Positions 3,001 through 5,942 of a DNA stretch of 64,000 nt are shown here, piece by piece; position 1 is the first letter of the stretch, and every line of letters begins with the position of its first letter. Origin of the DNA: Escherichia coli (lineage in GTDB: Bacteria; Pseudomonadota; Gammaproteobacteria; Enterobacterales; Enterobacteriaceae); assembly GCF_036507355.1 (NCBI RefSeq), contig NZ_AP027877.1; one strand, 5' to 3'. Position numbers: made by a program.

Positions 3001-5942
3001 GTAATGCCACCCAAATTATCCAATACGCTGGCAAAACATTTCTTATCGACCCGTTACTCGCGCCTAAAGGAAGTTATCCGGGTTTTGCCGGAACGGCACG
3101 CGCAGAAATCCGCAATCCAACGGTAGAATTACCGTGCGATTTAACAACGTTACTCAACGTTGACGCCCTAATCGTGACCCATTTGCATGAAGATCATTGG
3201 GACGAAACAGCCTCCCGCGTCGTCCCTAAAGATAAACTGATTTATGTGCAAAATGAGCAAGATGCGGAATCACTGAATAAACAAGGATTTACGCATCTTA
3301 CCGTACTTACCGACGAGACTAAATTTGGCGATATTACTCTGCATAAAACGACAGGGCAGCACGGCTCCGATCGCACCTATGCCGACCCGGCGATGGCGAA
3401 GCGTTTAGGCGCAGCCTGCGGCGTTGTTTTCCAGCACCCGACAGAGAAAACGCTCTATCTGGCTGGCGATACCCTCTGGCGTGACGACGTCGAGGCTACA
3501 ATGCTAACTTTCCAACCAGAAGTGGTTGTGTTGAATGCCGGATTTGCGCATGTTCTGGGGCATGGCGCGATAATTATGGGAGCAGAAGATATTCTCAAAA
3601 CACATTTTACCCTGCCAGAAGCGCAAATTGTCGCGACACATATGGAGGCCGTAAACCACTGTTTGCTGACGCGTGATGCGCTCAAGGAATACGCCAGAGA
3701 TAATCAAATTATCGAATTTGTGAACGTACCAGAAGATGGTGAAACGTTGACATTCTAATTCGGAGATAAAGAGTGTTATGCGCCCGCTAACTGTTGCCAT
3801 TATCGCCGTTGCCGGTTTTAGTCCTTTTCACCTTTCCGTACCGTTTATCGTATTTAGCGAAAAAATGGCGGAGAAAAAACACTTTCACGTAATTATCTGC
3901 GCTGAAAAGCCGGGAAACGTGGACTCTGCCGATGGGTTTTCCGTAACCGCCACCCATGACTATACCGCAGTCATCCAGGCGGATATTGTGATAATTCCTT
4001 ACTGGGGAACAATTACACAAAAACCGCCACAAAAACTGCTGGAAGCCTTAACGACCGCACGGGATAACGGCGCACAGATTGTCGGGCTTTGCCTGGGCAC
4101 GTTTGTGCTCGGCTATGCAGGTTTACTGAAAAATAAGCGTGCCGCCACGCACTGGGAGTTCGAGCGTGAATTTCAGGCACGTTTTCCACAAACACATCTG
4201 GATATTAACGCGTTGTACGTAGACGATGACGGCATTATTACCTCTGCCGGTACTGCCGCGGCGCTGGATTGCTGTTTGTATATTGTTCGGCAACATTTTG
4301 GCAGCGACTATGCTAACCATATTGCCCGACGGATGGTCGTACCGCCATATCGCACCGGCGGTCAGGCGCAGTTTATTGAGCAACCAGTGCCGAAAAATAC
4401 CCATGATGAACGCATTAATCTCCTGCTGGATTACCTGCGGCAAAACATTGCGCAACAGCATGATCTCGACTCGCTGGCGCAGCGAGTAATGATGAGTCGC
4501 CGCACATTAACTCGCCATTTTATGAAAGCGACCGGTTCGAGTATCGCCGAATGGCTCATTACTGAACGCTTACGCCGTAGCCAGGAACTGTTGGGATCCA
4601 GTCAGTTGCCCGTTGAGCGGATAGCGGCTGAGGTGGGTTTTCTCTCACCTGTGACCTGGCGTCAGCATTTTAAATCTCACTTCGGCGTCAGCCCCGCCGA
4701 ATGGCGCAAAACCTTTCGCGGTATGGCATGATAGCGCCCGGAAGAGAGTCAATTCAGGGTGGTGAATGTGAAACCAGTAACGCTATACGATGTCGCAGAG
4801 TATGCCGGTGTCTCTTATCAGACCGTTTCCCGCGTGGTGAATCAGGCCAGCCACGTTTCTGCGAAAACGCGGGAAAAAGTGGAAGCGGCGATGGCGGAGC
4901 TGAATTACATTCCCAACCGCGTGGCACAACAACTGGCGGGGAAACAGTCGTTGCTGATTGGCGTTGCCACCTCCAGTCTGGCCCTGCACGCGCCGTCGCA
5001 AATTGTCGCGGCGATTAAATCTCGCGCCGATCAACTGGGTGCCAGCGTGGTGGTGTCGATGGTAGAACGAAGCGGCGTCGAAGCCTGTAAAGCGGCGGTG
5101 CACAATCTTCTCGCGCAACGCGTTAGTGGGCTGATCATTAACTATCCGCTGGATGACCAGGATGCCATTGCTGTGGAAGCTGCCTGCGCTAATGTTCCGG
5201 CGTTATTTCTTGATGTCTCTGACCAGACTCCCATCAACAGTATTATTTTCTCCCATGAAGACGGTACGCGACTGGGCGTGGAGCATCTGGTCGCATTGGG
5301 TCACCAGCAAATCGCGCTGTTAGCGGGCCCATTAAGTTCTGTCTCGGCGCGTCTGCGTCTGGCGGGCTGGCATAAATATCTCACTCGCAATCAAATTCAG
5401 CCGATAGCGGAACGGGAGGGCGACTGGAGTGCCATGTCCGGTTTTCAACAAACCATGCAAATGCTAAATGAGGGCATCGTTCCCACTGCGATGCTGGTTG
5501 CCAACGATCAGATGGCGCTGGGCGCAATGCGCGCCATTACCGAATCCGGGTTGCGCGTTGGTGCGGATATCTCGGTAGTGGGATACGACGATACCGAAGA
5601 CAGCTCGTGTTATATCCCGCCGTTAACCACCATCAAACAGGATTTTCGCCTGCTGGGGCAAACCAGCGTGGACCGCTTGCTGCAACTCTCTCAGGGCCAG
5701 GCGGTGAAGGGCAATCAGCTTTTGCCCGTCTCTCTGGTGAAAAGAAAAACCACCCTGGCGCCCAAGACGCAAACCGCCTCTCCCCGCGCGTTGGCCGATT
5801 CATTAATGCAGCTGGCACGGCAAGTTTCCCGACTGGAAAGCGGGCAGTGAGCGCAACGCAATTAATGTGAGTCAGCTCACTCATTAGGCACCCCAGGCTT
5901 TACACTTTATGCGTCCGACTCGTATGTTGTGTGAAATTGTGA

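What the first reader, a model, noticed from the sequence alone, without database searches (positions are those of the whole stretch)
4690..4770. The lacI promoter is built from the last codons of the upstream regulator gene
The classical lacI promoter hexamers (-35 GCGCAA, -10 CATGAT) sit inside ...PAEWRKTFRGMA-stop; the TGA stop is part of the -10 hexamer. Upstream of GAATGGCGCAAAACC the sequence here differs from the K-12/vector lacI upstream sequence as I remember it (GACACCATC...). This suggests K-12 lost the two upstream genes by a deletion ending within this 3' end, leaving the lacI promoter as a gene remnant.
Basis: partly seen in the sequence, partly recalled or inferred. Interest (0 to 1): 0.45.

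Follow-up and report, generated by a model that had tools for sequence, protein, structure and literature searches.

The report
lacI promoter is an ovrA remnant

Summary
In the window the GlxA/AraC-type regulator ORF (3778-4731; called ovrA in O157:H7) ends ...SPAEWRKTFRGMA-TGA. The classical lacI -35 (GCGCAA, 4704-4709) falls in codons W309-R310-K311, and the -10 (CATGAT, 4727-4732) contains the stop codon. K-12 is identical from 4698 through the lacI start and unrelated upstream; the segment K-12 lacks (2864-4697, 1834 bp) is the published O island 19.

- Citrobacter sedlakii has the same mhpR-MBL-GlxA-lacI-lacZ order, and C. rodentium and C. amalonaticus have MBL-GlxA-lacI. The two genes are therefore ancestral and the K-12 state is a deletion.
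- The deletion is not specific to K-12. It occurs in 4462 of 5426 complete E. coli genomes and in E. whittamii.
- 487 genomes carry an independent deletion that leaves 99 nt, and about 1300 plasmids keep 86 nt.
- No truncation seen cuts into the -35.
- The EWRKTFR codons are invariant in orthologues from genera without lac, so the -35 is old coding sequence.
- The -10 occurs only where lacI follows directly, and there synonymous sites are unusually conserved.

The promoter, OI-19 and OvrA are each known. I found no paper that links them.

The parts
1995..2867 (+). mhpR (IclR-type regulator). It forms the left flank, and K-12 identity runs up to 2863.
   Evidence: ORF list; tblastn 99% to K-12 MhpR; alignment with K-12.
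2864..4697 (+). The segment absent from K-12, 1834 bp. It corresponds to O island 19 of O157:H7 (z0443 plus most of z0442/ovrA).
   Evidence: Alignments; length check; OI-19 is described as a 1834-bp island with z0442 (ovrA) and z0443 in PMC8565820.
2982..3758 (+). MBL-fold metallo-hydrolase gene (z0443 homologue), 258 aa.
   Evidence: RefSeq annotation of the 99-100% identical O157:H7 locus; orthologues with Lactamase_B_2 lie next to GlxA in Citrobacter, Leclercia and Enterobacter.
3778..4731 (+). GlxA-family (DJ-1/PfpI plus AraC-type HTH_18) regulator gene, 317 aa. This is ovrA of O157:H7.
   Evidence: Pfam DJ-1_PfpI residues 6-171 and HTH_18 residues 233-311; PGAP names it 'GlxA family transcriptional regulator' or 'ovrA'; full-length orthologues at 67-80% identity.
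4474..4710 (+). DNA encoding the HTH_18 domain (residues 233-311). Its last three codons (W309, R310, K311) contain the lacI -35.
   Evidence: with coordinates computed from the ORF start.
4633..4731 (+). The 99-nt gene stump kept by the second E. coli deletion allele (yaiL | stump | lacI; B2-like strains such as ATCC 11775 and ST95).
   Evidence: 487 genomes; PGAP annotates it as an incomplete GlxA-family pseudogene.
4646..4731 (+). The 86-nt stump (with a 1-nt deletion) that travels with the plasmid- and transposon-borne lac operon of Klebsiella and others.
   Evidence: 1320 plasmids have matches starting at query base 147, which is window 4646.
4694..4731 (+). The stump kept by the majority mhpR|lacI allele. 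It is 38 nt in E. whittamii, E1V33 and O121:H19. In K-12 identity starts at 4698 (34 nt) after four substitutions.
   Evidence: Junction listing; 4462 genomes.
4704..4709 (+). lacI -35 hexamer GCGCAA, inside codons TGG CGC AAA (W309-R310-K311).
   Evidence: Hexamer assignment comes from the literature (PMC7049694, citing Calos 1978). The W-R-K codons TGG CGN AAR are invariant in all 19 GlxA tails listed.
4727..4732 (+). lacI -10 hexamer CATGAT. It contains the ovrA stop codon TGA (4729-4731).
   Evidence: GGCAT[GC]AT is conserved upstream of every lacI orthologue of at least 69% identity. It is part of the GlxA ORF only where lacI follows directly.
4740..4767 (+). lacI 5' leader. The transcription start at G4740, 28 nt before the GTG, is recalled from the classical literature and not re-derived here.
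   Evidence: From memory (Steege 1977, Calos 1978). The sequence is 100% identical to K-12. No terminator or stable hairpin lies between the ovrA stop and lacI.
4768..5850 (+). lacI (GTG start), 360 aa.
   Evidence: 99% to K-12 LacI.

Best explanation
In the common ancestor of Escherichia and Citrobacter, lacI sat 33-41 bp behind a two-gene module: an MBL-fold hydrolase gene followed by a GlxA/AraC-type regulator gene, the latter called ovrA in O157:H7. lacI's weak constitutive sigma-70 promoter formed inside the end of that regulator gene. The -35 (GCGCAA or GCGAAA) is the DNA that encodes the invariant Trp-Arg-Lys at the end of the HTH domain. The -10 (CATGAT or CATCAT) occupies the last one or two codons and the stop. 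The window shows this intact state.

Later, a ~1.8-kb illegitimate deletion (about window 2875-4693, with 2-nt microhomology) removed the hydrolase gene and codons 1-306 of the regulator but spared the promoter. That allele now predominates in E. coli, K-12 included, so the 'lacI promoter' of textbooks and vectors begins with the last 34-38 nt of a lost gene. Other lineages and mobile lac operons truncated the gene independently, always upstream of the -35. This suggests the stump is kept because it is the promoter.

Shown here: the coordinates, the breakpoints, the synteny, the conservation and the allele counts. Inferred: that the same start site is used in intact strains, that promoter function constrains the synonymous sites, and that read-through from the upstream genes also reaches lacI.
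For: 1. The hexamers and stop codon overlap as described.
2. Breakpoints against K-12 are at 2863/2864 and 4697/4698, giving 1834 bp. This equals the published length of OI-19.
3. The intact order mhpR-MBL-GlxA-lacI-lacZ is found in C. sedlakii. MBL-GlxA-lacI is found in C. amalonaticus (two strains), a Citrobacter MAG and C. rodentium.
4. Orthologues in Leclercia, Enterobacter and Huaxiibacter, which have no lac genes nearby, end ...GVSPAEWRKTFR, and Leclercia even has TGG CGC AAA. Pfam HTH_18 extends to residue 311.
5. The -10 lies in the ORF tail only in the six loci where lacI follows directly. Elsewhere the tail diverges after TTT CGC GG.
6. Third-codon-position identity in the tail is 0.79-0.85 against 0.54 gene-wide in the adjacent loci (top 0.3-2.6% of windows). 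In the non-adjacent loci it is 0.58 against 0.56.
7. Independent truncations retain from 4633 (487 E. coli genomes), from 4646 (1320 plasmids), from ~4686 (C. koseri) and from 4694-4698 (4462 genomes). A decayed pseudogene keeps 4410-4731.
8. The 28 nt upstream of the -10 are 14-25/28 identical to the GlxA tail in 18 of the 21 lacI loci tested that lack a directly adjacent GlxA gene, from ten genera or genus-level groups. The null is 7.8 +/- 2.3 with a maximum of 18.
9. No terminator or stable structure lies between the stop and lacI.
Against: - No transcript data were available, so the start site in strains with the intact gene is assumed from K-12.
- The hexamers match consensus poorly (6 of 12) and would not be called by a generic scan.
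- The synonymous-site test uses only 6 and 11 related sequences without phylogenetic correction.
- The pattern that no truncation cuts the -35 is partly survivorship, because only loci with a recognisable lacI were collected.
- In the C. freundii complex a methyltransferase gene separates GlxA from lacI, and a second, degenerate copy of the tail sits before lacI. The simple model does not explain how that duplication arose.
- The exact original junction is uncertain by a few bases, because the window has 3 extra nt after the mhpR stop and K-12 has four substitutions at the junction.
Confidence: 0.85

Rival explanations
1. OI-19 is a horizontally acquired island, the usual reading of 'O island'. 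On this view it was inserted between mhpR and lacI in the O157:H7 lineage, K-12 shows the original state, and the overlap of the ORF end with the lacI promoter is a by-product of where the insert landed.
For: The segment is catalogued as an O157-specific island absent from K-12 (PMC8565820 and PMC10877973). Only 435 of 5426 E. coli genomes carry it. E. whittamii and two other Escherichia species representatives have the mhpR|lacI junction.
Against: - An insertion would have to end exactly in frame so that pre-existing 'backbone' DNA supplied the invariant EWRKTFR codons and a stop.
- The same gene order occurs in C. sedlakii, C. rodentium and C. amalonaticus.
- The B2-type allele keeps 99 nt of the gene with a different left flank, so it descends from an intact copy.
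- Divergence from Citrobacter is similar for the island genes and for the flanking lac genes.
- Identity among the E. coli copies is 97.8-99.6%, which is core-like.
Confidence: 0.04
2. The promoter came first and the ORF grew into it. On this view lacI had its own promoter, and the GlxA-type gene lost an earlier stop and extended across it, so the promoter is not 'built from' codons.
For: The last 3-4 codons after R314 differ among orthologues (GMA, GVAS, GV, GD, GAA, MRS, ANL, NASS). The -10 lies in exactly this variable part.
Against: Everything up to R314 (window 4719) is conserved protein sequence in genera with no lac genes nearby, and it lies within or directly after the Pfam HTH_18 domain. 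This stretch includes the -35 and 10 of the 17 spacer bases. The rival can therefore hold at most for the -10, and that is already part of the preferred account.
Confidence: 0.08
3. In intact strains the embedded hexamers are idle and lacI is transcribed as the third gene of an MBL-ovrA-lacI operon. The hexamers became the working promoter only after the deletions.
For: The gap is 36 nt, with no terminator-like site and no stable hairpin. All three genes lie on the same strand.
Against: In adjacent loci synonymous sites of the tail are more conserved than the rest of the gene, and this is not so in non-adjacent loci. The -10 and the stretch before it are conserved across lacI loci of many genera with unrelated upstream DNA. 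Both results fit a promoter that was already in use. Read-through and an internal promoter are not mutually exclusive.
Confidence: 0.1

Closest known systems
The classical E. coli K-12 lacI promoter (Calos 1978; wild type, with lacIq as the up-mutation)
   Same: It has the same sequence: 100% identity over 4698-4767 with K-12, covering the -35 GCGCAA, the 17-nt spacer, the -10 CATGAT and the leader. The hexamer positions are as given in PMC7049694.
   Different: Here the promoter is not intergenic. It lies inside an intact 317-codon ORF, and a further ~50 nt of conserved coding DNA lies upstream of the -35, which K-12 lacks. From memory, lacIq changes GCGCAA to GTGCAA. In an intact ovrA that change would be R310C at an invariant residue (inference).
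O island 19 of EHEC O157:H7 and its regulator OvrA (z0442; Liu et al. 2020, reviewed in PMC8565820 and PMC10877973)
   Same: It contains the same two genes, has the same length (1834 bp, window 2864-4697) and occupies the same position next to lacI.
   Different: The reviews treat it as an O157-type island encoding a virulence regulator. In the text I could read they do not mention that its right border lies inside ovrA's own last codons, that those codons are the lacI promoter, or that the 'island' is syntenic in Citrobacter and so ancestral. The primary paper could not be read.
Promoters located inside the coding end of the upstream gene (from my own knowledge: for example the main rpoS promoter within nlpD, and ftsZ promoters within ftsA and ftsQ)
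   Same: A sigma-70 promoter for the downstream gene is embedded in the coding sequence of the upstream gene on the same strand.
   Different: Here the host gene has been lost in most strains and the promoter survives as a 34-99-nt gene fragment. That fragment also hitch-hikes with the mobile lac operon.
Annotated 'GlxA family transcriptional regulator, incomplete' pseudogene upstream of lacI in B2-type E. coli (PGAP)
   Same: It is the same remnant, 99 nt, recognised automatically.
   Different: The 34-38-nt remnant in K-12-type genomes is too short to be annotated, and the annotation does not connect it with promoter function.

Membership tests
E. coli lacI promoter (lacIp) | Sequence identity with the experimentally defined K-12 promoter: -35 GCGCAA, 17-nt spacer, -10 CATGAT, and a leader running to the GTG. 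| tested here: met
   100% identity over 4698-4767. The pattern is unique in the window. Hexamer positions follow PMC7049694.
E. coli lacI promoter (lacIp) | Transcription initiates about 28 nt upstream of the GTG in this genomic context, with the upstream gene intact. | not testable with these tools
   No transcript data were available. The start site is taken from memory of the K-12 literature.
GlxA-family / AraC-XylS regulators (OvrA) | [quoted passage not shown] | tested here: met
   Pfam DJ-1_PfpI at 6-171 (E = 3e-12) and HTH_18 at 233-311 (E = 3e-19). RefSeq names the protein GlxA family or ovrA.
GlxA-family / AraC-XylS regulators (OvrA) | The ORF is full length and intact relative to its orthologues. 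| tested here: met
   Coverage is 97-100% and identity 67-80% to 316-322-aa orthologues.
O island 19 of O157:H7 | A 1834-bp segment absent from K-12, holding z0443 and z0442 (ovrA), next to lacI. | tested here: met
   Window 2864-4697 is 1834 bp. It is 99.0-99.2% identical to O157:H7 genomes including EDL933. Description in PMC8565820.
Horizontally acquired genomic island | Absent from the ancestral syntenic locus of related genera, with mobility genes, a tRNA or repeat borders, and foreign-like divergence. | tested here: not met
   The same order is present in C. sedlakii, C. rodentium and C. amalonaticus. The segment holds only two ORFs, neither a mobility gene. The right border lies inside the ORF. 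Divergence is like that of the flanking genes. Base composition was not examined.
Deletion remnant (gene stump) | The retained fragment is collinear and in frame with the 3' end of an intact homologue, and the breakpoints are definable on both sides. | tested here: met
   Independent stumps of 99 nt, 86 nt and ~46 nt occur elsewhere.
Dual-use (coding plus promoter) sequence under double constraint | Excess conservation of synonymous sites where the promoter overlaps the codons, and no such excess where the downstream gene is not adjacent. | tested here: inconclusive
   The values are 0.79-0.85 against 0.54 in adjacent loci and 0.58 against 0.56 in non-adjacent loci. The direction is as predicted, but there are only 6 and 11 related sequences and no phylogenetic correction.

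The most novel reading that the evidence does not exclude
In the ancestral and O157-type arrangement, lacI is wired to the upstream module. Transcription of the hydrolase-ovrA pair reads through into lacI because there is no terminator. The ~50 nt of unusually conserved coding DNA upstream of the -35 (4651-4698) carries further cis elements. Repressor dosage would then depend on whatever signal controls ovrA, which in EHEC is a regulator of the LEE virulence island. The deletion that produced the K-12 allele uncoupled lacI from this input and left only the minimal, coding-constrained weak promoter. The well-known weakness of the lacI promoter would then be partly a legacy of having to encode Trp-Arg-Lys.
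Probability: 0.3. Interest if true: 0.55.

Novelty: new member of a known kind. Interest (0 to 1): 0.42.

Why it matters
The lacI promoter is one of the most widely copied pieces of regulatory DNA: it sits on pET-type and many other vectors. This analysis shows that its first 34 bases are the last codons of a lost AraC/GlxA-type regulator gene.

It also changes how OI-19 and OvrA should be read. They are not a gain by EHEC. They are the ancestral state, and about 92% of the complete E. coli genomes examined have since lost them. This bears on accounts of OvrA as an island-encoded virulence regulator.

The locus offers a clean natural example of a promoter arising inside coding sequence and then outliving its host gene. 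It also defines the minimal unit that moves with the mobile lac operon.

Finally, natural alleles with 34, 38, 86, 99 and 954 nt of upstream gene form a ready-made deletion series for testing what sets Lac repressor dosage. None of this overturns established knowledge of lac regulation.

Tried and rejected
- **Generic promoter and terminator scan**. It does not list the lacI promoter because the match is too weak, so it cannot be used as evidence either way. It found no terminator in 4690-4770.
- **Free local alignment of 160 nt upstream of lacI against the GlxA 3' end, with shuffles**. It was significant only for the closer loci and underpowered for distant genera. I replaced it with an anchored 28-nt comparison.
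- **RNA folding of 4690-4790**. The z-score was -0.13, so there is no structure worth pursuing.
None of them, nor the reading of PMC4549013, PMC6851279, PMC11445065, PMC7049694 and bioRxiv 2025.11.14.688166, turned up any statement that the lacI promoter is a GlxA/ovrA remnant. PMC4549013 lists the 5' flank of lac in Sakai simply as mhpR. The primary OvrA paper (PubMed 31630185) is not held, so I cannot exclude that it mentions the overlap.
- **Insertion hypothesis.** Considered and rejected; see the rival explanations.
- **Independent origin of the K-12 junction variant.** I considered whether K-12's GACACCATC arose from a deletion separate from the TAACGCCGCC variant. I rejected this because both have the same length and the same flanks. 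Substitution after a single event is simpler, although four changes in 10 bp remain unexplained.
- **Origin of the second tail copy in the C. freundii complex.** I did not resolve how it arose.
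Full report
**What is in the window**

Bases 1-9100 contain, in order:
- mhpA on the minus strand (179-1843)
- mhpR (1995-2867)
- an MBL-fold hydrolase gene (2982-3758)
- a 317-codon regulator gene (3778-4731)
- lacI (GTG at 4768, ending at 5850)
- lacZ (5973-9047)

The regulator has a DJ-1/PfpI domain (residues 6-171) and an AraC-type HTH_18 domain (residues 233-311). RefSeq calls the identical protein a GlxA-family transcriptional regulator, and newer records call it ovrA.

**The observation**

The ORF ends ...GVSPAEWRKTFRGMA-TGA. Reading the bases directly:
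- GCGCAA is at 4704-4709. It spans the third base of W309, all of R310 and the first two bases of K311.
- CATGAT is at 4727-4732 and contains the stop TGA (4729-4731).
- The spacer is 17 nt, and 36 nt separate the stop from the lacI GTG.

The combined pattern occurs once in 64 kb, against 0.01 expected. As a consensus match it is poor (6 of 12) and a generic scan does not list it. What identifies it as the lacI promoter is complete identity with K-12 over 4698-4767. The literature assigns the hexamers to these positions and reports that an A-to-C change in the -10 weakens the promoter (PMC7049694, citing Calos 1978). The transcription start (G4740, 28 nt before the GTG) is recalled from the classical papers and was not re-derived.

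**The breakpoint**

Aligned with K-12 MG1655, identity starts at 4698: K-12 reads ...CGT TGA CACCAT|CGAATGGCGCAA and the window reads ...GTCAGCCCCGC|CGAATGGCGCAA. On the other side identity ends at 2863, just before the mhpR stop. K-12 therefore lacks 2864-4697, which is 1834 bp. This is the length and content given for O island 19 of O157:H7 EDL933: z0443 plus z0442 (ovrA), where ovrA is an AraC-type activator of ler (PMC8565820, PMC10877973).

**Direction of the event**

Four independent lines show that K-12 has a deletion rather than the window an insertion.

1. *Synteny.* A scan of one genome per species with LacI, mapped by tblastn, finds mhpR-MBL-GlxA-lacI-lacZ in Citrobacter sedlakii. 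It finds MBL-GlxA-lacI-lacZ in two C. amalonaticus strains and a Citrobacter MAG. C. rodentium has the same order.
2. *The stump is real coding sequence.* Orthologues at 67-80% identity in Citrobacter, Leclercia, Enterobacter and Huaxiibacter all end ...GVSPAEWRKTFR. The last three genera have no lac genes at the locus. The Leclercia tail even reads TGG CGC AAA, which contains the same GCGCAA.
3. *Independent truncations.* 487 E. coli genomes, including the type strain ATCC 11775 and ST95, have yaiL joined to a 99-nt stump (from 4633) followed by lacI; the whole mhp cluster is gone as well. About 1300 plasmids, mostly from Klebsiella, carry lacI behind an 86-nt stump that starts at 4646 and has a 1-nt deletion. 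C. koseri keeps the sequence from about 4686, and an Escherichia species (MOD1-EC7003) has a decayed pseudogene retaining 4410-4731.
4. *Divergence.* Identity between the window and Citrobacter is 75-81% for the two extra proteins and 78-83% for LacI and LacZ. The 435 E. coli copies are 97.8-99.6% identical to one another. The segment therefore behaves like core DNA.

**Distribution**

Three alleles account for 5384 of the 5387 complete E. coli genomes that have any match:

| Allele | Genomes |
|---|---|
| mhpR\|lacI junction | 4462 |
| yaiL\|stump | 487 |
| intact (O157:H7, O55:H7, O145 and assorted others) | 435 |

The mhpR|lacI junction is also present in E. whittamii and two other Escherichia species representatives. 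The deletion is therefore old or has spread by recombination, and it is not a K-12 peculiarity.

In those genomes and in an O121:H19 strain the junction reads CGT TAA (C/T)GCCGCCGAATGG. This matches the regulator gene back to 4694 and implies a deletion of about 2875-4693 with a 2-nt microhomology. K-12 and many other strains have TGA CACCATCG instead, which is four transitions within 10 bp. I cannot explain this cluster.

**How far the promoter is 'made of codons'**

The GlxA tails are listed.
- The W-R-K codons (TGG CGN AAR, which give the -35 as GCGNAA) are invariant in all 19 loci.
- In the six loci where lacI follows directly, the ORF ends GGT [AG]TG GCA T[GC]A (TAG). The -10, GGCAT[GC]AT, therefore lies in the last codons or the stop.
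- In the 13 loci where lacI does not follow directly, the tail diverges right after TTT CGC GG and has no -10.

So the -35 and most of the spacer are ancestral coding sequence. The -10 sits in the variable C-terminal tail and is tied to the presence of lacI.

Synonymous sites agree with this. Among the adjacent loci, third-position identity is 0.85 for codons 308-317 and 0.79 for EWRKTFR, against 0.54 gene-wide (top 0.3% and 2.6% of windows). The last ~80 nt of the gene contain its best-conserved 33-nt windows. Among the non-adjacent loci the tail is ordinary, at 0.58 against 0.56. The sample is small and not phylogenetically corrected, so I treat this as suggestive.

**The stump travels with lacI**

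GGCAT[GC]ATAGCG and the leader are recognisable upstream of every lacI orthologue of at least 69% identity. The 28 nt just upstream of the -10 are 14-25/28 identical to the GlxA tail in 18 of the 21 loci tested that lack a directly adjacent GlxA gene. These come from Citrobacter, Budvicia, Serratia, Salmonella arizonae and diarizonae, Pseudocitrobacter, Pseudenterobacter, two Kluyvera species and Klebsiella spallanzanii. The null is 7.8 +/- 2.3 with a maximum of 18. The weakest of these, C. youngae ATCC at 14/28, is still reached by only 1% of null 28-mers. The two Tatumella species and K. ascorbata are not distinguishable from the null.

No truncation seen cuts nearer than 6-10 nt upstream of the -35. 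This amounts to a natural deletion series, with the caveat that loci without a working lacI would not have been collected.

**Mechanism**

The best-supported account is a weak sigma-70 promoter embedded in the 3' end of the upstream regulator gene. It has been retained as a 34-99-nt gene stump wherever the gene was lost.

No terminator-like site or stable hairpin lies between the ovrA stop and lacI. In intact strains, read-through from the hydrolase-ovrA transcript into lacI is therefore likely, but it has not been shown.

One inference follows. Because W-R-K is invariant, the -35 can vary only at its fourth base while the gene is intact. From memory, the lacIq up-mutation changes GCGCAA to GTGCAA, which in an intact gene would be R310C. 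Part of the promoter's weakness may thus be inherited from its coding past.

**What is not explained**

In the C. freundii complex a methyltransferase gene on the opposite strand lies between GlxA and lacI. GlxA has its own complete tail there, and a second, degenerate copy (for example CAAATACGCCAAAACCCTACGCGCTGTGGCATGATAGCG) precedes lacI. A recombination that brought in a donor GlxA-methyltransferase segment is one possibility, but I did not test it.

**Comparison with what is known**

The promoter (Calos 1978), OI-19 and OvrA are all described, and PGAP already flags the 99-nt stump as an incomplete GlxA-family gene. Promoters inside upstream genes are a familiar arrangement.

- that the lacI promoter is the 3' end of ovrA
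- that the right border of OI-19 lies inside ovrA
- that OI-19 is ancestral rather than acquired

PMC4549013 lists the 5' flank of lac in Sakai simply as mhpR. The primary OvrA paper is not in the library.

**Verdict**

This is a tidy and apparently unreported piece of evolutionary history attached to a very well-known promoter. It also corrects the 'island' reading of OI-19. It is not a new kind of system. Interest is moderate.

Noticed in passing
L001 (K-12, reverse strand) junction versus L011, L014 and L068; equivalent to window ~4688-4697: The mhpR|lacI junction exists in two variants of equal length: TAA(C/T)GCCGCCG (E. whittamii, Escherichia sp. E1V33, O121:H19) and TGACACCATCG (K-12 and many others). 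They differ by four transitions within 10 bp in otherwise ~98-99% identical DNA. The K-12 form creates a perfect TTGACA hexamer. No explanation was found.
   Followed up: partly
L005 5900-6745 (C. freundii); the same in L017, L019-L021, L023-L025, L027, L029, L045 and L046: In the C. freundii complex a 202-aa methyltransferase gene on the opposite strand separates GlxA from lacI. GlxA has a complete tail of its own, and a second, degenerate copy of the tail precedes lacI. C. youngae ATCC 29220 (L036) has lost most of the methyltransferase gene.
   Followed up: partly
L009 and L010, 5001-9147 (C. amalonaticus): Some C. amalonaticus genomes have MBL-GlxA followed directly by lacZ, with no lacI and no lacY. 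The GlxA tail diverges after ...TTTCAGGGTGT, so this deletion also has an end inside the tail or promoter.
   Followed up: no
L012 (Lamprocystis purpurea contig), L057 (SAR11 single-cell contig), L064 (Mangrovicoccus): These are fragments of E. coli lacI at 92-99% identity in unrelated organisms. L012 has T7-promoter-like vector sequence (TATAGTGAGTCGTATTA) followed by GACACCATCGAATGGCGCAA, so expression-vector contamination of the assembly is the likely cause there. The K-12 gene stump is thus being deposited in unrelated genomes.
   Followed up: no
window 2887-2923 (mhpR-MBL intergenic region); L022 ~3125-3160: A 37-nt block (GGCCCATTCTCATCGTTATTCGCCCATTTGCCCACAT) upstream of the hydrolase gene is nearly identical in C. 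sedlakii, although the rest of the spacer differs. It may be the promoter or operator of the hydrolase-ovrA pair.
   Followed up: no
window 4651-4698: In loci where lacI follows directly, the ~16 codons upstream of the -35 also show raised synonymous-site identity (0.76 against 0.54 gene-wide) and include an A/T-rich run (CATTTTAAATC). This stretch is kept by the 99-nt and 86-nt stumps but lost in the K-12-type allele.
   Followed up: partly
L015 780-1140 (Escherichia sp. MOD1-EC7003): The GlxA gene here is a decayed pseudogene with internal deletions; only pieces corresponding to window 3820-3851, 4285-4334 and 4410-4731 remain. The lacI start codon context reads GAAGGTG instead of GAATGTG.
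   Followed up: no
L007 6744-10832 (C. freundii GCA_013786205.1): The gene caller reports a single 1362-aa product that spans lacI and lacZ, which suggests a fusion or frameshift joining the two genes in this strain.
   Followed up: no
window 2865-2870: The window's mhpR ends CGC TAG followed by TTACGCC, whereas the deletion alleles read CGT TAA CGCC or CGT TGA. The intact allele therefore carries 3 extra nt (GTT) after or at the stop, which blurs the exact left breakpoint.
   Followed up: partly
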